Source: an uncultured archaeon
GTDB lineage: Archaea > Thermoplasmatota > Penumbrarchaeia > JASLWR01
Assembly: GCA_964430885.1 (NCBI GenBank)
Contig: CAYSHM010000018.1
Coordinates: 28,205-61,232, forward strand
Reading direction: 5' to 3'
Length of the DNA stretch: 33,028 bases
Below are positions 1,341 to 5,635 of this stretch, in pieces. A program made the position numbers and the translations under genes. Below the pieces are notes generated by a model. That model had not been told where the DNA came from, searched no databases, and saw nothing but the letters and a program-made list of their open reading frames with translations. Within the stretch, counting starts at the first letter, position 1. Every line of letters begins with the position of its first letter.

Positions 1341-2525
1341 ATGGAAAACTCCAAAGGATCGCTGCGGAGGGTATTGACAATGACTAAGAGCGGACCGGCA
1401 AGGGTTCAACTATCCGAGGAATGCAGGGGCGTCATAGCCCAGGCTGACGACGCTAACAGGATACACAACAAACACTACTTCGGCGTCCCCCTTCCAGGAG
1501 GCGGACTTGAACTATCATCACTGGAAAACGTCTATCTCCATGAGAAAGGGCGTGTAAGGGTGTTCTTCCAGGAGAGGGAGCTGGGATTCCAGGAGATTAT
1601 TTCCTTTCTCAAAGGGAGAACAGGGTTCGACTATCAGCTCTATATCGCCTACAGGGACCTCAAGTCCCGGGGCTTTATAGTGAAGTTCACCTCCCCCTTT
1701 GCCTTCTCACTCTATCCGGGTGGTGCCAAGATCTCCAAGACCCTTTCCAAGGTATTTGCAGATGTGTTCTCGGAGAGGGACAGGGTGGACACCTCGGAAC
1801 TCAGGAACAGGGTAAAGAGGGCCGTTGACCTCCGAAAGGATTATATGGTTCAGATAATAGACGAAGAAGGGGATGTGACCTATTACAGAATCGGTCTCAT
1901 GAGGCCCAAGGGCAGTGCAGCCCCCAAGGTAAGGGATGCCAGGATAAAAGGGACCCTCCAGGGGGGCCGGATAGTGGTGTTCGATACCCGGGACATGGAC
2001 CTGCTATGGGTAAGGGAGTTCCTGGGCCAAAGACAGCTTTCCACCCATCAGTTCTCACTTGTGGAAGGGATACACCTTATGGACAGAGGAGTCCTGGAAC
2101 TGGAGGATAGTGACGAGAAAGCACCTGACATCGAGGCATTGATGGAATTGGGCAGGGAGGCCGAAAAGAACTTCGATAAAAGGTATGAGCTCTACTGTGA
2201 CCTGAAAAAGAGAGGGTTCATCGTGAAGACAGGGTTCAAGTACGGTGCACATTTCCGCGCCTACCAGAGCGATCCGGACAGGGAGCACGCTGACCTTCTT
2301 TTCCACTATATTGACGGAGATGCCGAGCTGACATGGTCAGATGTTTCCAGAAGCGTAAGGGTGGCCCACGGAGTGAAAAAGAAGATGGTGTTCGGCTTCA
2401 CACTTGCCCTGCCCAAAGAGATGGACGGTAACGAAACGGAAGAGGGGGAAGGTAAAGGAAGTGACCCCAAGGCCAGGGATAAACTCGACTACATCATGAT
2501 AAAGAGGGAGAAACCCTACAGCTGA
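1341..2525 (+). CDS. endA: tRNA-intron (splicing) endonuclease, two-unit homodimeric (alpha2) type; start may be 1380
   Basis: Two repeats of the YxDLKxRG(F/Y)IVK motif. The C-terminal unit has GFKYGAHFRAY (Tyr), HAD (His) and GVKKK (Lys). The N-terminal unit lacks them but has the acidic loop DEEGDVTYY. GGAGG at 1366-1370 precedes ATG 1380. Confidence 0.93.
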   Translation: MENSKGSLRRVLTMTKSGPARVQLSEECRGVIAQADDANRIHNKHYFGVPLPGGGLELSSLENVYLHEKGRVRVFFQERELGFQEIISFLKGRTGFDYQLYIAYRDLKSRGFIVKFTSPFAFSLYPGGAKISKTLSKVFADVFSERDRVDTSELRNRVKRAVDLRKDYMVQIIDEEGDVTYYRIGLMRPKGSAAPKVRDARIKGTLQGGRIVVFDTRDMDLLWVREFLGQRQLSTHQFSLVEGIHLMDRGVLELEDSDEKAPDIEALMELGREAEKNFDKRYELYCDLKKRGFIVKTGFKYGAHFRAYQSDPDREHADLLFHYIDGDAELTWSDVSRSVRVAHGVKKKMVFGFTLALPKEMDGNETEEGEGKGSDPKARDKLDYIMIKREKPYS

Positions 2526-2704
2526 ACAGGCTGATCCCTGATGTATGGCAGGGGTCATTTTGGCTATGGAAAATACAAAATTAAGCATAGATTAAAATAA
2601 TATTGTCAAATCTTAGTGAAGTATCATTGACCAAGGATGTGCGAGGGACATCCTATGGCCGGATTCTTGTATCAGCTATCAAATAACTTATACGGTGTAG
2701 AGAG

Positions 2705-3217
2705 ATGCCCAAACTGCCAACGGAGATACTACAGAAAAGACTGCAGCAGGAGCTGATGATGTGCAAGCGAAAACTGCGCCATGAGATCAAGATAGACAAA
2801 CCCGATTTCGCAGATTTCCCGGTGACATTGGAGGTCACCATGAGCAGGGTCCCGGGACCGGTGGTGAAGATGAACAGGGTCACCCACAGATGGAAGCATG
2901 TGTTCACCATGAGGATCACCGATGAGTATCCCTACAAGAAACCCATTGTCAGATGGCATACGGAAATATTCCATCCCAACATAATGCTTCCACTGGACGG
3001 CGGTTACGTCTGCACAAAACTACTTGATACATGGGATTTCCAATCCAACCTTCTGTCCTTCATTCAGGCGGTGGAATCACTGCTCTCCAATCCAAATCCC
3101 CGAAGCCCCTACGGCTCGGAGAGCTGCATGAACGCTGCCAGATATTTCATAGATAATGATTACAATCCTCCAGGGATAGTCTCATCCACCAAGAGCGGGC
3201 CCCAGATAATAAAGTGA
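2705..3217 (+). CDS. Ubiquitin-conjugating enzyme E2 (UBC fold), eukaryote-like
   Basis: YPYKKPIVRWHTEIFHPNI...GGYVCTKLLDTWDFQSNLLSFIQAVESLLSNPNPRSP matches the UBC consensus YPxxPPxVxFxTxIxHPNI-G-(I/V)C...W...SLLxxPNPxxP. HPN is at aa 90-92 and the active-site Cys at aa 103 (TGC 3011-3013). Confidence 0.92.
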   Translation: MPKLPTEILQKRLQQELMMCKRKLRHEIKIDKPDFADFPVTLEVTMSRVPGPVVKMNRVTHRWKHVFTMRITDEYPYKKPIVRWHTEIFHPNIMLPLDGGYVCTKLLDTWDFQSNLLSFIQAVESLLSNPNPRSPYGSESCMNAARYFIDNDYNPPGIVSSTKSGPQIIK

Positions 3218-3363
3218 TATTTCATATCTTCATACTCTAGTTCACAATATTCATTTACATATAATCAATATAATATGGAACAATCAATTTAATACCTGAT
3301 AATCAGTCAAATACCGAATGATCAAGATAATACTGTATAGAACCACTTTCCGGGTGATATAGA

Positions 3364-3504
3364 ATGGGAAAGATAAAGATCGTCAGCGAGACAAAGAAAG
3401 AGACAGTGGAAAAGGAGCCCCCTGCAAACATCGACTTCAAATATGTGCCGGGGGAGACAGACATGAACGATATGAAGAAATTCTTGAAGAAATACCTCTC
3501 ATGA
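3364..3504 (+). CDS. Small 46-aa ORF (MGKIKIVSETKKETVEKEPPANIDFKYVPGETDMNDMKKFLKKYLS); stand-alone peptide or frameshifted N-terminus of the downstream JAMM protein
   Basis: Below the ORF-track length cutoff. GGTGA Shine-Dalgarno at 3353-3357, 6 nt before the ATG. Composition is coding-like after an AT-rich spacer. Confidence 0.65.
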   Translation: MGKIKIVSETKKETVEKEPPANIDFKYVPGETDMNDMKKFLKKYLS

Positions 3505-3556
3505 AAGAAGAGGATTTCCTTCATACCTAGAATCAGTCATACAGGCAGGTATCCAT

Positions 3557-5089
3557 ATGCAACTGAACCCCACTAGAGAGGACAAGACCGTAGACATGTT
3601 CATAGACAAGAGCGCGGTCAAGAAGATGCTCAAGCACTGCAGGGACTTCCGGGACGCCCGGCTGGAGGTTATGGGGTTCATGTTGGGACACAAGTACTCC
3701 TGGGGCGGAAAGGACTATACCGTAGTGGAGGAGGTCCTGACTTCTGATCTGGACACCTCATCGGTATCCGTGAAGTTCGCATCCTTCGAGCCTCTTTTCC
3801 AGGAGCTGGACCGTCTGGAGAAGGAAGGAAAGGACTATATTCTGGTGGGCTGGTATCATTCCCATCCAGGACATACGTCATTCATGTCACCCACGGATGT
3901 CAATACCCAAAGACAGATGTTCAGCAAGGAGTACCAGTCAGCCATAGTCATCGATCCCATCAGCATCGAGATGAAGGCCTTCGCACTTCAGAACAACGAG
4001 GTATACGAGAAACCCTACGCCATTCTTGATACCGAAGCAGGCGCTCCGGACGATGAGGATATCTACGAGGCCGAGATGGTAGAGGAGGAGTTGGTGGAGG
4101 CGGAGATGGTGGATGAGCTCACCAGTAAACCCGGCAGGAAACCCTCCTACAAAGAACCACTGAATCCTATACTGGACACCAGAGAGGTTGACCTTTTCAT
4201 CAGGAAGAAGGCAGCTGAGAAAATGCTGGAGCACTGCCGGGAATACCGGGACAGCCAGCTCGAGGTAATGGGATTCATGGTGGGTCACAGATTTGCATGG
4301 GGCGGTAGCGAGTTCACCGTGGTGGAGGATGTGGTAACCTCGGAGCTGGATGCCTCAGCAGTATCGGTAAAGTTCGCAAGTTTTGACGGTGTGTTCTCCG
4401 AGCTGGACAGAATGGAGAAACAGGGCAAGGACTACATTCTTGTGGGATGGTACCACTCCCATCCCGGCCATACATCCTTCATGTCCCCTACGGATATCGA
4501 TACCCAGCGGCAGATGTTCAAGAAAAAATATCAATCAGCCATTGTCATCGATCCCATCAACATCGAGATGAAAGCCTTCACCCTCAGGGGAGAGGATGTT
4601 TACGAGAAACCCTTTGCAGTACTCTGGGGCGAGGACGATGCACCAGCTATGGACGCTCCGGACGACATCTATGACGTCTTTGAGGACGACAGCATCCTTG
4701 ACGCTGACATACTTGAGGAGAAGACCAGAGGCGAGCTTACTGATGAATGGAAGGAGGAATGGCAGACTGAAGAACTTCCTCCTGCGGAACCGGAGATAGA
4801 ATTCGAGGCCGGTGAAGAAGAAGAGGACGAGGACGTTCTTTTCGACCCCATCTTGGACGATGAATTGTACGACGATATTGAGAACACAGAAGGCCCGGAA
4901 GAACACGATGACAAACTGGGCATTCTGGATTACAGCATGATCGCGGCCCCGGTGCTCTTCGGGGTATTGGGCGGCGCCTTCGGTTATATTTTTGAAAAGG
5001 ACAAGAGCAGGTCCTACAGCTATTTCCTGCTGATAGCCGGCATTATACTCTCCATCTTTTGGTACAGCATGAGCTATGTGATATATTAA
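3557..5089 (+). CDS. Tandem JAMM/MPN+ (Mov34/Rpn11-like) metallo-isopeptidase with acidic linker and two C-terminal transmembrane helices
   Basis: Two copies of EVMGFM(L/V)G...ILVGWYHSHPGHTSFMSPTD(V/I)xTQ...AIVIDP (E37/H101/H103/D114 and E236/H300/H302/D313). A ~100-aa D/E-rich stretch follows, then the hydrophobic segments MIAAPVLFGVLGGAFGYIF and YFLLIAGIILSIFWYSMSYVIY. Confidence 0.92.
   Translation: MQLNPTREDKTVDMFIDKSAVKKMLKHCRDFRDARLEVMGFMLGHKYSWGGKDYTVVEEVLTSDLDTSSVSVKFASFEPLFQELDRLEKEGKDYILVGWYHSHPGHTSFMSPTDVNTQRQMFSKEYQSAIVIDPISIEMKAFALQNNEVYEKPYAILDTEAGAPDDEDIYEAEMVEEELVEAEMVDELTSKPGRKPSYKEPLNPILDTREVDLFIRKKAAEKMLEHCREYRDSQLEVMGFMVGHRFAWGGSEFTVVEDVVTSELDASAVSVKFASFDGVFSELDRMEKQGKDYILVGWYHSHPGHTSFMSPTDIDTQRQMFKKKYQSAIVIDPINIEMKAFTLRGEDVYEKPFAVLWGEDDAPAMDAPDDIYDVFEDDSILDADILEEKTRGELTDEWKEEWQTEELPPAEPEIEFEAGEEEEDEDVLFDPILDDELYDDIENTEGPEEHDDKLGILDYSMIAAPVLFGVLGGAFGYIFEKDKSRSYSYFLLIAGIILSIFWYSMSYVIY
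3560..4625 (+). repeat. Intragenic direct duplication of the JAMM domain (period 597 nt, 199 aa)
   Basis: Residues ~2-157 align with ~202-356. A 24-aa core is identical in protein (nt 3827-3898 vs 4424-4495). Confidence 0.9.
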
Positions 5090-5146
5090 AACCGAGCGGG
5101 GAACGCGCCGGCGGGCACATCGGAGCAAAGAAAAAGATCCGCTTTT
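5090..5146. terminator. Probable terminator region between convergent genes
   Basis: GC-rich segment flanked by U-tracts: TCTTTTTCTTT on the minus strand after the DUF355 stop, and GCTTTTT on the plus strand. Confidence 0.35.
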
Positions 5147-5635
5147 TCAAACCAGTTTGTAGCCGATGGTTCGGAGGAACTTTCTTCTGGCTTCCTTCTG
5201 CTCCTTGTTCTCCACAGCCGAGGCCGAACCGCCGTCTATGACACCCAGGATCCCGCGGCCCTCTCCGTCATCAGCCACTATCACCTTGGCGGGATTGCCT
5301 GTAGCGCAGAAGATATGGCATATCTCGGGGATGTTCCTTACAGCGCTGAGGACGTTAAGGGGGAAGGCGTTGCCTAAAAATATGATAAAGGAATGACCTG
5401 CGCCTATTTTCATTGCATTCTTTGCTGCCAGCTCTGCAAGCTCTTCATTATTCCCCTCAGTCCTTACAAGTCTTGAATCCGATGCCTCACAGAAGGCCAG
5501 CCCGAACTCGATCCCAGGTACGCTGTTCATAAGAGCCTCGTAAAGACCCTCTGCGGATTTGGGCGCAAAGTGTGCTTGGCCAAGTATGAAGTTCATATCC
5601 TCTGGTTTATCTATATCTACCTTTAGGATTTTCAT
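5147..5635 (-). CDS. Adenosine-specific kinase family protein (DUF355)
   Basis: KPEDMNFILGQAHF, FGLAFCEAS, IGAGHSFIIFL, IFCATGNP, GRGILGVIDG and RRKFLRTIGYK are characteristic of the family. GGTGA RBS upstream. Confidence 0.88.
   Translation of the reverse strand: MKILKVDIDKPEDMNFILGQAHFAPKSAEGLYEALMNSVPGIEFGLAFCEASDSRLVRTEGNNEELAELAAKNAMKIGAGHSFIIFLGNAFPLNVLSAVRNIPEICHIFCATGNPAKVIVADDGEGRGILGVIDGGSASAVENKEQKEARRKFLRTIGYKLV

What the first reader, a model, noticed from the sequence alone, without database searches (positions are those of the whole stretch)
3557..5089. Two catalytically intact JAMM domains in tandem, both under purifying selection, on an acidic tether with a 2-TM anchor
Seen: both domains keep E...HxH...S..D. 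In the 24-codon core GKDYILVGWYHSHPGHTSFMSPTD (3827-3898 vs 4424-4495) I count 12 nucleotide differences, all synonymous, so this is an old, selected duplication and not an assembly repeat. No signal peptide is evident, so the domains should face the cytoplasm. Known: eukaryotic MPN enzymes work as active/inactive heterodimers (Rpn11/Rpn8, CSN5/CSN6). Inference: a covalent MPN+/MPN+ pseudo-dimer, possibly for di-Ubl chains or oligomeric membrane substrates. I do not know this architecture from any characterised protein.
Basis: partly seen in the sequence, partly recalled or inferred. Interest (0 to 1): 0.75.

Follow-up and report, generated by a model that had tools for sequence, protein, structure and literature searches.

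The report
Membrane-tethered double JAMM protease
A marine archaeon encodes a membrane-anchored enzyme with two intact copies of the proteasome-type (Rpn11-like) ubiquitin-removing domain, sitting next to a ubiquitin-conjugating (E2-like) gene; this doubling has arisen several times in uncultured microbes, and no such protein has been studied.

Summary
ORF 3557-5089 (510 aa) has two Rpn11-like JAMM/MPN+ domains, each with E..HxH..S..D. They are followed by a 95-residue acidic disordered tether and two conserved C-terminal hydrophobic helices.

The repeats are 69% identical in protein and 70.6% in DNA. Synonymous sites are near saturation (pS 0.69) and dN/dS is about 0.11. The 24-codon core has 12 differences, all synonymous. 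This is an old, selected duplication and not an assembly artefact.

The architecture is not unique:
- The usual form of this subfamily is one JAMM with the same tether and anchor.
- Tandem intact JAMMs occur in 10 prokaryotic proteins among the 150 best cluster representatives.
- Domain trees place them in four separate clades, so there were at least four independent duplications.

The gene lies in a block conserved in 4 of 4 genomes of its family: E2-like gene, a 46-aa mini-gene, then the JAMM gene(s). The mini-gene is homologous to an N-terminal module that is fused to the JAMM domain in other lineages. Elsewhere the genome has a Ubl ending in GG plus one residue, a third JAMM and two E1-like genes.

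Best reading: a membrane-tethered, two-headed Ubl deconjugating or processing protease. The proposed intramolecular MPN+/MPN+ pseudo-dimer and the cytoplasmic orientation remain untested. I found no paper describing this architecture.

The parts
2705..3217 (+). E2-like ubiquitin-conjugating enzyme gene (170 aa) with an HPN motif and a Cys aligned to the catalytic Cys of eukaryotic E2s
   Evidence: Pfam UQ_con PF00179, E 7.7e-14. The best PDB sequence match is human UBE2A (6cyr_A), E 2.5e-11, with HPN..C aligned. An E2-like gene sits directly upstream of the JAMM gene(s) in 4 of 4 genomes of the family. P0040 is a natural E2-JAMM fusion.
3364..3504 (+). 46-aa mini-gene, a split-off N-terminal module of the JAMM family
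   Evidence: It is conserved at the same position in the 3 other genomes (63-66% identity over 41 aa, E 2e-14 to 8e-14). It is homologous to the segment directly N-terminal of the JAMM domain in many fused homologues, e.g. P0150 2e-7 and P0162 2e-6. It has its own stop codon, lies 27-52 nt before the JAMM start, and the frame offsets differ among genomes. No Pfam family matches it. In the fused homologue P0135 the module is modelled at pLDDT 77-96, with whole-protein pTM 0.88.
3557..5089 (+). JAMM-JAMM-acidic tether-two-helix anchor ORF (510 aa, P0001)
3596..4027 (+). JAMM/MPN+ domain 1 (aa 14-157; E37, H101, H103, S111, D114)
   Evidence: Pfam stretch 15-121. AF2 block-mean pLDDT is about 88-96, with a dip to 68-77 at aa 61-80. 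All family-invariant residues are kept.
4028..4192 (+). Inter-domain linker (aa 158-212), acidic, with the EMVE..EMV motif found at the start of the tether in single-domain homologues
   Evidence: pLDDT about 38-53; a low-confidence helix at 169-188. The motif is seen in the alignment.
4193..4624 (+). JAMM/MPN+ domain 2 (aa 213-356; E236, H300, H302, S310, D313)
   Evidence: Prok-JAB stretch 218-325. AF2 pLDDT about 88-97. All family-invariant residues are kept.
4625..4921 (+). Acidic, predicted-disordered tether (aa 357-455)
   Evidence: 42 D/E against 4 K/R in aa 361-455. pLDDT is below 50 for 364-450. Length and sequence vary among homologues.
4922..5083 (+). Two C-terminal hydrophobic helices (aa 456-480 and 485-509), the putative membrane hairpin
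   Evidence: Kyte-Doolittle means up to 1.9-2.0 over 19 residues. AF2 helices at pLDDT 88-94. P465, G472, G473, G476, G495 and W502 are invariant in 16 of 16 anchored homologues. The loop is short and net positive in 16 of 16.

Best explanation
The ORF encodes a membrane-tethered protease with two catalytically competent Rpn11-like JAMM (MPN+) heads. It belongs to an E2-containing ubiquitin-like modifier system of a marine Thermoplasmatota-like archaeon. Proposed mechanism, all inferred: the C-terminal helix pair fixes the protein to the cytoplasmic face of the membrane. The roughly 95-residue acidic disordered tether lets the two Zn-dependent heads reach nearby proteins. Each head cleaves after the Gly-Gly end of the genome's Ubl. 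That could mean trimming the one-residue C-terminal extension of the Ubl precursor, removing Ubl from modified (probably membrane-proximal) proteins, or both. This activity would oppose or edit the work of the adjacent E2-like enzyme. The 46-aa product of the mini-gene between E2 and JAMM probably binds the JAMM domain in trans, replacing the N-terminal module that is covalently attached in other lineages. The doubling came from an old internal duplication of JAMM plus proximal tether. It gives two active sites per anchor, and whether they pack as a dimer or act independently is open.
For: Shown by computation. (1) Both domains keep every family-invariant residue. They have diverged symmetrically: end branches 0.20 and 0.22, and 68-72% identity to the same five closest homologues. 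Between them dN/dS is about 0.11 with near-saturated synonymous sites. (2) The fold and sequence are Rpn11-like. Yeast Rpn11 4ocl_B gives E 7.9e-17 and the Caldiarchaeum Rpn11 homologue 6fjv gives 2.2e-12. Foldseek gives 5u4p_B TM 0.81, rmsd 2.1, and 6fnn_A (CsRpn11 bound to ubiquitin) TM 0.81. (3) Linkage to E2: the order E2 - mini-gene - JAMM is conserved in 4 of 4 genomes of the family, while the gene upstream of E2 differs. A natural E2-JAMM fusion, P0040, exists. (4) The rest of a Ubl system is in the genome. There is an 80-aa beta-grasp-like protein ending ..PDPEGGF whose best Pfam family is ubiquitin (E 0.0022, below cut-off). It is 86-90% identical and adjacent to the second JAMM gene in 4 of 4 genomes of the family. 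There is also a second E2 paralogue and two ThiF-type E1-like genes. (5) Membrane theme: the two-helix C-terminus has invariant Pro/Gly/Trp positions in 16 of 16 homologues. Relatives place JAMM domains after a signal peptide, a PKD ectodomain, a TM segment and an RRRR stop-transfer plus acidic stretch (P0122), which puts those JAMM domains in the cytoplasm. (6) From the literature: CsRpn11 both processes the Ub precursor after Gly-Gly and deconjugates Ub, and JAMMs that cluster closer to Rpn11 occur with Ub, E1 and E2 homologues (PMC6043591, abstract, section 6 and passages). (7) RNA-library contigs from the same study cover 3392-3584 and 4175-4325. This is a weak hint of expression, because DNA carry-over is not excluded.
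Against: No activity, metal binding, substrate or localisation has been measured. The Ubl and E1 genes are not in this locus, and the Ubl's Pfam ubiquitin score is below the family cut-off, so the pairing of this enzyme with that Ubl is inferred. The Ubl is adjacent to the other JAMM gene (P0026), which may be its dedicated processing enzyme. The inter-helix loop is net positive in 16 of 16 anchored homologues and the N-flank is acidic in the window's clade. By the positive-inside rule this argues for the opposite orientation, or for a hairpin that does not fully span the membrane. Two intact motifs do not prove two active sites. The neighbouring genes are housekeeping genes that suggest no pathway.
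Confidence: 0.6

Rival explanations
1. Obligate covalent MPN+/MPN+ pseudo-dimer. The two domains pack against each other like Rpn11/Rpn8, and the tandem gene replaces a homodimer formed by the single-domain orthologues. It would create a composite binding surface for di-Ubl or oligomeric substrates.
For: MPN domains of eukaryotic complexes work as paired dimers, and solved Rpn8-Rpn11 heterodimers are the closest structures. Tandem duplication of intact JAMM domains arose in at least four separate clades, as expected if two domains per functional unit is favoured. A sister genome keeps two adjacent separate JAMM genes. The 45-55 residue linker is long enough to allow packing.
Against: CsRpn11 is reported as monomeric in solution, the crystal dimers of archaeal JAMMs use differing interfaces, and Pyrococcus JAMM1 is active as monomer and as dimer (PMC6043591, passage read). 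The linker is modelled as disordered and whole-protein pTM is only 0.48. The structure tool returns no inter-domain confidence, so the model says nothing either way. Both domains stay equally conserved, with no sign of one turning into a scaffold.
Confidence: 0.3
2. Sub-functionalised heads: one domain trims the Ubl precursor (GG-X) and the other removes Ubl from substrates or cleaves Ubl chains.
For: CsRpn11 performs both reactions (PMC6043591). The genome's Ubl carries a one-residue extension in 4 of 4 genomes of the family. The 50 aa differences out of 162 between the repeats lie mostly outside the catalytic core; pN is 0.20-0.29 in the flanking windows against 0.05-0.09 around the motif.
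Against: Most relatives manage with one domain on the same anchor. The Ubl gene is adjacent to a different JAMM gene. No domain-specific insertions or motif changes were seen.
Confidence: 0.15
3. Extracytoplasmic or non-Ubl protease. The hairpin inserts with its positive loop inside, so the acidic N-terminal part and the JAMM domains face outward, or the enzyme cleaves something other than a Ubl, as some prokaryotic JAB proteins do.
For: The loop is net positive in 16 of 16 anchored homologues and the N-flank is acidic in the window's clade. The protein ends 0-2 residues after helix 2 in 15 of 16. No Ubl or E1 gene lies in the locus.
Against: There is no signal peptide, and a folded N-terminal part of about 455 residues would have to cross the membrane. 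The conserved cytoplasmic-type E2 partner and the E2-JAMM fusion argue for a cytoplasmic Ubl role. Relatives with clear topology signals place JAMM in the cytoplasm. In P0022 both the N-flank and the loop are strongly basic, so the charge pattern alone does not fix the orientation.
Confidence: 0.08
4. Anti-virus defence module of the bacterial E1/E2/JAB/Ubl type (Bil or CBASS-like).
For: PADLOC JAB models match both domains; the best is PDLC00890 at 1.4e-17.
Against: The E2 and the mini-gene match no PADLOC model. The block sits in conserved housekeeping synteny in 4 of 4 genomes of the family, next to an adenosine-kinase-like gene and an Fe-S membrane protein gene. The JAMM domains score higher on eukaryote-type JAB than on Prok-JAB. 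No E1 or Ubl is in the locus.
Confidence: 0.03

Closest known systems
CsRpn11 of Caldiarchaeum subterraneum (PDB 6FJU/6FJV/6FNN; PMC6043591)
   Same: An archaeal JAMM that resembles eukaryotic Rpn11 more than the SAMP-type JAMMs do. Sequence E 2.2e-12; fold TM 0.81 with 29% identity. It is associated with an E2-containing Ubl system. It cleaves after the Gly-Gly of a Ub precursor and deconjugates Ub (paper abstract and passages).
   Different: CsRpn11 is soluble, has a single domain, is reported as monomeric, and is encoded in one Ub-E1-E2-RING-Rpn11 operon. Here there are two domains in one chain, an acidic tether, a hydrophobic helix pair and a split-off N-terminal module. The Ubl and E1 genes are elsewhere in the genome, and no RING gene was looked for.
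Eukaryotic Rpn11-Rpn8 MPN heterodimer (PDB 4OCL, 4O8X, 5U4P); likewise CSN5-CSN6
   Same: The best sequence and fold matches: 7.9e-17, and TM 0.81, rmsd 2.1, 30% identity. Two paralogous MPN domains per functional unit.
   Different: In eukaryotes the two domains are separate polypeptides, one has lost the metal site (MPN-), and both carry C-terminal helices that build the lid. Here both domains are MPN+ in one chain. The Pfam family PF23594, precomputed on the eukaryotic Rpn11 hits, is not among this protein's Pfam matches. No lid or PCI partners were examined.
Archaeal desampylases HvJAMM1 / PfJAMM1 (names recalled; Pyrococcus JAMM mentioned in PMC6043591)
   Same: Archaeal Zn-JAMM enzymes that remove ubiquitin-like SAMPs from proteins.
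   Different: [quoted passage not shown] The window's domains score best on eukaryote-type JAB and are linked to an E2.
AMSH / AMSH-LP / Sst2 endosomal JAMM deubiquitinases (PDB 3RZU, 2ZNR, 4MSM)
   Same: JAMM enzymes that act at a membrane surface. They are fold matches at lower rank, TM about 0.55-0.63 normalised to the target.
   Different: By recalled knowledge they are recruited peripherally through MIT and ESCRT contacts, have one catalytic domain and carry K63-specific inserts. They are not integral membrane proteins.
Other uncharacterised tandem-JAMM membrane proteins found here (P0004; P0013/P0121/P0122; P0190-type)
   Same: Two intact JAMM motifs per chain plus hydrophobic segment(s). 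P0004 has the same overall plan: 472 aa, 98% coverage, 37% identity by BLASTP.
   Different: They arose by independent duplications. P0121 and P0122 are type-I receptor-like proteins with large ectodomains and C-terminal JAMM pairs. The P0190 type has one TM segment followed by a long C-terminal region. None carries a name from its source beyond 'proteasome lid subunit RPN8/RPN11' or 'Mov34/MPN/PAD-1 family'.

Membership tests
JAMM / MPN+ metalloprotease domain (Pfam JAB PF01398) | Profile match above the curated cut-off | tested here: met
   88.7 bits against a cut-off of 22.5, over 2 stretches.
JAMM / MPN+ metalloprotease domain (Pfam JAB PF01398) | Catalytic motif E..HxH..S..D present in each domain | tested here: met
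   E37/H101/H103/S111/D114 and E236/H300/H302/S310/D313. These are the invariant or nearly invariant columns of the 74-row alignments.
JAMM / MPN+ metalloprotease domain (Pfam JAB PF01398) | MPN fold | tested here: met
   AF2 domains at pLDDT about 90. Foldseek to Rpn11 5u4p_B gives TM 0.81 and rmsd 2.1.
JAMM / MPN+ metalloprotease domain (Pfam JAB PF01398) | Zn2+ binding and isopeptidase or peptidase activity | not testable with these tools
   Needs biochemistry.
Proteasome-lid Rpn11 / CSN5 orthologues | C-terminal helical region that builds the lid or CSN bundle (the Pfam family PF23594 precomputed on the eukaryotic hits) | tested here: not met
   PF23594 is listed for the eukaryotic Rpn11 hits but is not found in P0001. 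An acidic tether and hydrophobic helices follow the domains instead.
MPN+/MPN- heterodimer (Rpn11/Rpn8 type) | One partner has lost the metal-binding motif | tested here: not met
   Both domains keep the full motif.
MPN+/MPN- heterodimer (Rpn11/Rpn8 type) | The two MPN domains contact each other | tested here: inconclusive
   The structure tool gives no inter-domain confidence; pTM is 0.48 with disordered linkers.
E2-associated archaeal 'JAMM-3'/Rpn11-like group of Fuchs et al. 2018 | Closer to Rpn11/CSN5 than to the JAMM-1/-2 groups, and genomic association with an E2 homologue | tested here: met
   The top PDB matches are Rpn11, CsRpn11 and CSN5. E2 is adjacent in 4 of 4 genomes of the family. 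Whether these sequences fall in that paper's cluster could not be checked, because the cluster lists were not seen and supplements are closed.
Complete eukaryote-like Ub operon (Ub-E1-E2-RING-Rpn11, Caldiarchaeum type) | All components in one gene cluster | tested here: not met
   Only E2 and JAMM are adjacent. The Ubl is on contig C1 and the E1-like genes are on C8 and C17. RING E3 was not searched for.
Bacterial defence Ubl systems (PADLOC models) | E1/E2/JAB/Ubl genes together, matching defence-system profiles | tested here: not met
   Only generic JAB models match. The E2 and the mini-gene match none. The locus lies in conserved housekeeping synteny.
Integral membrane protein with a helical hairpin | Two hydrophobic helices of membrane-spanning length | tested here: met
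   Uncharged runs of 21 and 25 residues. AF2 helices 456-480 and 485-509.
Integral membrane protein with a helical hairpin | Actual insertion and orientation | not testable with these tools
   No topology predictor was available. The charge pattern conflicts with the lack of a signal peptide.

The most novel reading that the evidence does not exclude
The protein is an obligate intramolecular MPN+/MPN+ dimer, a living analogue of the stage just after the gene duplication that later gave eukaryotic Rpn11/Rpn8 and CSN5/CSN6, with both sites still active. Together with the adjacent E2 and the 46-aa trans-acting module it forms a membrane-bound conjugation and editing station. This station would mark or unmark membrane proteins with the archaeal Ubl for extraction and degradation, which would be an archaeal counterpart of membrane-protein quality control by ubiquitin.
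Probability: 0.1. Interest if true: 0.85.

Novelty: new variant of a known kind. Interest (0 to 1): 0.5.

Why it matters
Eukaryotic JAMM deubiquitinases of the proteasome, signalosome and BRCC36 complexes all work as pairs of paralogous MPN domains, and how that pairing began is unknown. These archaeal proteins show Rpn11-like domains duplicated in tandem at least four independent times, with both copies still intact and selected. They could be expressed to test directly whether a second MPN domain is favoured for dimerisation, for valency or for a division of labour. The conserved E2 - mini-gene - JAMM block, with a highly conserved GG-X Ubl elsewhere in the genome, also points to an E2-dependent Ubl system in a marine Thermoplasmatota-like lineage, part of it placed at the membrane. 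The split-off 46-aa N-terminal module is a candidate small subunit of JAMM enzymes that has no Pfam family.

Tried and rejected
Assembly artefact or recent repeat: rejected. The repeats are only 70.6% identical in DNA, with saturated synonymous sites. Two assemblies carry the stretch unchanged, though both may be the source sample.

Intramolecular dimer test: complex prediction with domain 1 (alignment A2) against domain 2 (A3) returned 'no answer'. The scores were 0.01 and 0.30 against a mark of 0.32, and the controls were not run. This is neither support for nor evidence against binding.

Same duplication as the two-gene arrangement in sister genome G001? Unresolved. The 16-row clade is a polytomy. 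Holding d1 together with the basic-tail type (G001A, P0015, P0016) costs 21.4 lnL (p-AU 0.034), but G001A itself does not group with P0015/16. Holding d1 and d2 as sisters is not rejected (p-AU 0.255).

Programmed frameshift or read-through joining the mini-gene to the JAMM ORF: rejected. Each of the four genomes has a stop codon and a 27-52 nt gap, and the frame offsets differ (1, 2, 2, 0).

Pfam ubiquitin (PF00240) six-frame search of the own genome found nothing, but its controls also found nothing, so it is uninformative. The Ubl was found by reading the ORFs next to the second JAMM gene.

PF24838 (8xMP) matches the anchor at E 0.0075, below cut-off. I ignored it.

P0227 and P0055 have two JAMM motifs but are eukaryotic (a CSN5 and a nematode gene model). 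They were left out of the prokaryotic tally.

Literature searches: no paper in the held library describes tandem JAMM/MPN domains in one prokaryotic protein or a membrane-anchored archaeal JAMM. The one hit for 'two JAMM domains' concerns the Neurospora signalosome; I saw only its search listing. Subscription journals and paper supplements were not searchable.

The RNA-library contigs (run X4) cover only 5 of 30 bins, so no claim about expression level or operon structure is made.
Full report
WHAT IS THERE

ORF 3557..5089 (+) encodes 510 residues. Pfam finds the JAB/MPN family twice (PF01398, E 3.1e-25, 2 stretches) and Prok-JAB twice. A self-alignment pairs aa 3-164 with aa 202-363 without a gap. 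In that block 112 of 162 residues and 343 of 486 nucleotides are identical.

By Nei-Gojobori counting pS is 0.69 and pN is 0.187, so dS is about 1.9 (near saturation), dN is 0.21 and dN/dS is about 0.11. That is 12 over 15.8 synonymous sites and 0 over 56.2 non-synonymous sites. pS stays at 0.57-0.82 in six successive windows, so no recent conversion tract exists.

Both domains carry LEVMG and HSHPGHTSFMSPTD. In 74-row alignments built on each domain separately, G98, W99, H101, S102, H103, S111 and D114 are invariant, and E37 is nearly invariant. Both domains have all of these residues.

After domain 2 comes a stretch with 42 D/E and 4 K/R in 95 residues, followed by two hydrophobic segments.

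AlphaFold2, run on a 52-row alignment in which domain 1 was covered by only about 3-14 rows, gave mean pLDDT 77 and pTM 0.48:
- Both JAMM domains are near 90.
- The inter-domain linker is at about 38-53.
- Residues 364-450 are below 50.
- Two terminal helices, 456-480 and 485-509, are at 88-94.

Assemblies of two samples hold 2600-5200 without a difference. They may be the source of this DNA, so they are not independent. A third sample of the same study holds fragments.

WHAT KIND OF JAMM

The best solved relatives by sequence are yeast Rpn11 (4ocl_B, 7.9e-17), human PSMD14, the Caldiarchaeum Rpn11 homologue (6fjv_A, 2.2e-12) and CSN5. By fold they are Rpn11 in the Rpn8-Rpn11-ubiquitin complex (5u4p_B, TM 0.81, rmsd 2.1, 30% identity) and CsRpn11 bound to ubiquitin (6fnn_A, TM 0.81). 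So these domains are of the Rpn11-like kind and not the SAMP-type JAMMs.

They lack the C-terminal region that eukaryotic Rpn11 hits carry: PF23594 is listed for those hits and is absent.

RELATIVES AND ARCHITECTURE

In the 5.8-billion-protein search, 909 proteins had E <= 0.001 among the 8000 candidates scored. The named close hits are from Thermoplasmatota or Thermoplasmata metagenome bins.

The nearest relatives (P0002, P0003, P0005-P0012, P0014; 43-75% identity in the best local BLASTP match) have one JAMM domain, a variable acidic stretch and the same two-helix end. In a 16-row alignment P465, G472, G473, G476, G495 and W502 of the anchor are invariant. The single-domain form is therefore the norm, and the window protein is a doubled version of it.

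The exhaustive representative search gave 3205 proteins at E <= 0.001. Among the 150 best, 11 hold two full JAMM motifs. One of these, P0227, is a eukaryotic CSN5 and was dropped, leaving 10 prokaryotic representatives including the query:
- P0004, which has the same plan as the window protein (472 aa).
- P0121 and P0122: signal peptide, PKD ectodomain, TM segment, RRRR, acidic stretch, zinc ribbon, then two JAMMs at the C-terminus.
- Six proteins of a more distant type with two N-terminal JAMMs, one hydrophobic segment near residue 500 and a long C-terminal part.

P0013, from the first search, is a short form of the P0122 type. Both domains keep the Glu and the HxH..S..D in P0001, P0004, P0013, P0121 and P0122 by pattern search, and in P0191 by reading its sequence (EVGG..HSHP).

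Many further relatives carry a single JAMM at the C-terminus of very large proteins with an N-terminal and a later hydrophobic segment.

In a sample of 301 species genomes of the phylum, 57 had a match at E <= 1e-15. Two of them (G000 and G159) show two matches inside one open frame. The G159 case was not inspected further.

HOW OFTEN THE DOUBLING AROSE

In a 62-row domain tree (IQ-TREE, LG+G4), the two window domains and the single-domain P0002 form a group (92/77) inside a 15-row clade of single-JAMM anchored proteins (100/98). The two domains of P0004 are sisters (97/93). The two domains of P0013 lie in a separate 6-row clade (100/100).

A 50-row quick tree adds two points. In the P0013/P0121/P0122 family the first domains group together (96) and the second domains group together (91), which indicates one duplication in that family's ancestor. 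All 12 domains of the distant type form their own clade (100).

This gives at least four independent duplications.

The end branches of the window's domains are 0.20 and 0.22. Their identities to the same five closest homologues are 70/69/69/71/72% and 70/72/70/68/70%. Neither copy is decaying.

Monophyly of the two window domains is not rejected (p-AU 0.255).

The linker after domain 1 keeps the EMVE..EMV motif that opens the acidic tether in single-domain relatives. The duplicated unit was therefore the JAMM domain plus the proximal tether.

GENOMIC CONTEXT

Directly upstream, on the same strand, lies a 170-aa E2-like gene at 2705-3217:
- UQ_con, E 7.7e-14.
- Best PDB match human UBE2A, 2.5e-11, with HPN and the catalytic Cys aligned.

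The downstream genes converge on the opposite strand: a PF04008 'adenosine specific kinase' family gene and an Fe-S membrane protein gene. The rest of the window is housekeeping.

The order holds four genomes, all in one family. All four carry E2, then the JAMM gene(s), then the same two convergent genes, while the gene upstream of E2 differs:
- Two genomes have one JAMM-anchor gene.
- One (G001) has two adjacent JAMM genes. The first is 263 aa and ends in a basic tail with no hydrophobic helices. The second is 362 aa, is identical to P0012, and has the anchor.
- The window's genome has the fused tandem.

A natural E2-JAMM-beta-propeller fusion (P0040) also exists.

A SECOND FINDING IN THE LOCUS

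The 340-nt gap between E2 and JAMM holds a 46-aa ORF (3364-3504). tblastn finds it at the same place in the three other genomes, at 63-66% identity over 41 residues with E 2e-14 to 8e-14. Each copy has its own stop codon, lies 27-52 nt before the JAMM start, and the frame offsets differ among genomes.

blastp against the session's proteins shows it is homologous to the segment lying directly N-terminal of the JAMM domain in dozens of relatives: P0150 2e-7, P0162 2e-6, P0121 4e-6, P0164, P0124 and others. In the tandem proteins P0013, P0121 and P0122 each JAMM domain has its own copy.

The segment has no Pfam family.

In the fused homologue P0135 the whole protein is modelled at pLDDT 91.6 and pTM 0.88, with the module at 77-96 (strand 25-29, helix 36-46). 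The solved structures that superpose well (rmsd about 3) align over only about 135-160 of its 222 residues. From this I infer that the module packs on the JAMM domain. In the window's clade it has become a separate small subunit.

THE REST OF THE SYSTEM

The genome is 3.13 Mb in 44 contigs and 91.6% complete. It has a third JAMM domain in a 417-aa protein (P0026, contig C1), a second E2 paralogue (C14) and two ThiF-type E1-like genes:
- One E1-like gene (C8) sits beside an 81-aa MoaD/SAMP-like gene ending in GG.
- The other (C17, 286 aa) stands alone.

Immediately upstream of P0026 is an 80-aa gene ending ..PDPEGGF. Its best Pfam family is ubiquitin (E 0.0022, below cut-off). It is 86-90% identical and adjacent to the P0026 orthologue in all four genomes. 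It ends in GG plus one residue in the two copies whose alignment reaches the last residue (F in G000, Y in G002).

A Ubl that needs C-terminal trimming, an E1, E2s and Rpn11-like JAMMs match the logic shown experimentally for Caldiarchaeum. There CsRpn11 cuts the precursor after Gly-Gly and also deconjugates Ub (PMC6043591, abstract and passages). That paper also states that JAMMs clustering nearer to Rpn11 occur with Ub, E1 and E2 homologues (section 6).

MECHANISM AND ITS LIMITS

The best-supported reading is a membrane-tethered Ubl protease with two competent heads, working with the neighbouring E2 and the 46-aa subunit. Four things are not shown:
- activity;
- which Ubl is cut;
- whether the heads touch;
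- which side of the membrane they face.

On contact between the heads, nothing computed here decides. The literature passage that CsRpn11 is monomeric, and that archaeal JAMM crystal dimers differ in their interfaces, makes independent heads as likely as a pseudo-dimer. The recurrence of the doubling does suggest that two heads per unit pays off.

On orientation, three things favour the cytoplasm:
- There is no signal peptide.
- The partners are cytoplasmic.
- Relatives such as P0122 have unambiguous signals.

Against this, the loop between the two helices is short (3-9 residues) and net positive in 16 of 16 anchored homologues, and the N-flank is acidic in the window's clade. This fits a fully spanning N-in hairpin poorly. 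An interfacial or re-entrant anchor is possible.

The defence-system reading is weak. Only generic JAB models of PADLOC match, while the E2 and the mini-gene match none, and the locus is syntenic among genera.

NOVELTY AND VERDICT

The domain, its likely chemistry and the association of Rpn11-like JAMMs with E2s in archaea are known. What I found described in no paper (searches, within the limits of the held library) is:
- two intact MPN+ domains in one chain;
- their attachment to a conserved membrane anchor through an acidic tether;
- the repeated independent origin of the doubling;
- the split-off N-terminal module.

This is a new variant of a known kind. The pseudo-dimer inference is open. 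The claim of uniqueness is too strong. Interest is moderate, at about 0.5.

Noticed in passing
window 3364-3504 (+): A 46-aa mini-gene between E2 and JAMM. It is conserved in 4 of 4 genomes of the family and is homologous to the N-terminal module that is fused to JAMM domains in other lineages. It has no Pfam family and is probably a trans-acting JAMM subunit created by gene fission.
   Followed up: yes
own genome, contig C1:24329-24571 (-) and C1:22983-24236 (-): An 80-aa ubiquitin-like gene ending ..PDPEGGF sits directly upstream of a 417-aa protein with a long charged N-terminal region and a C-terminal JAMM (P0026). The pair is conserved, with the Ubl 86-90% identical, in all four genomes of the family.
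   Followed up: partly
L017 (G001 contig C34) 5510-6301 and 6354-7442: A sister genus has two adjacent, separate JAMM genes after the E2. The first ends in a strongly basic tail (like P0015/P0016) in place of the hydrophobic anchor. The second carries the anchor. This is a possible parallel to, or precursor of, the fused tandem.
   Followed up: partly
own genome, contig C14:45007-45516 (+) and C14:46731-48140 (-): A second E2-like paralogue (169 aa) lies next to a DnaJ-like gene. About 1.2 kb downstream is a 469-aa TPR-like protein containing an eight-cysteine, cross-brace-looking zinc-finger pattern, which might be a RING-like E3 candidate. This was not tested.
   Followed up: no
genome G159 (same class): One 5.5-Mb genome has 12 JAMM matches at E <= 1e-15, including two matches 67 nt apart in one 519-aa open frame. 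This is a lineage-specific expansion of the family.
   Followed up: no
proteins P0123, P0138, P0143, P0159, P0163, P0164, P0189: Very large proteins (1471-1901 aa). Six of the seven have a hydrophobic segment at the N-terminus (P0163 does not), all seven have a later one, and each has a single Rpn11-like JAMM at the extreme C-terminus. They look like receptor-like membrane proteins with a cytoplasmic JAMM output.
   Followed up: no
window 1341-2525 (+): A 394-aa tRNA-splicing endonuclease with both the N- and C-terminal Pfam domains matched twice (a two-unit, single-chain form). This is consistent with an archaeal host.
   Followed up: no
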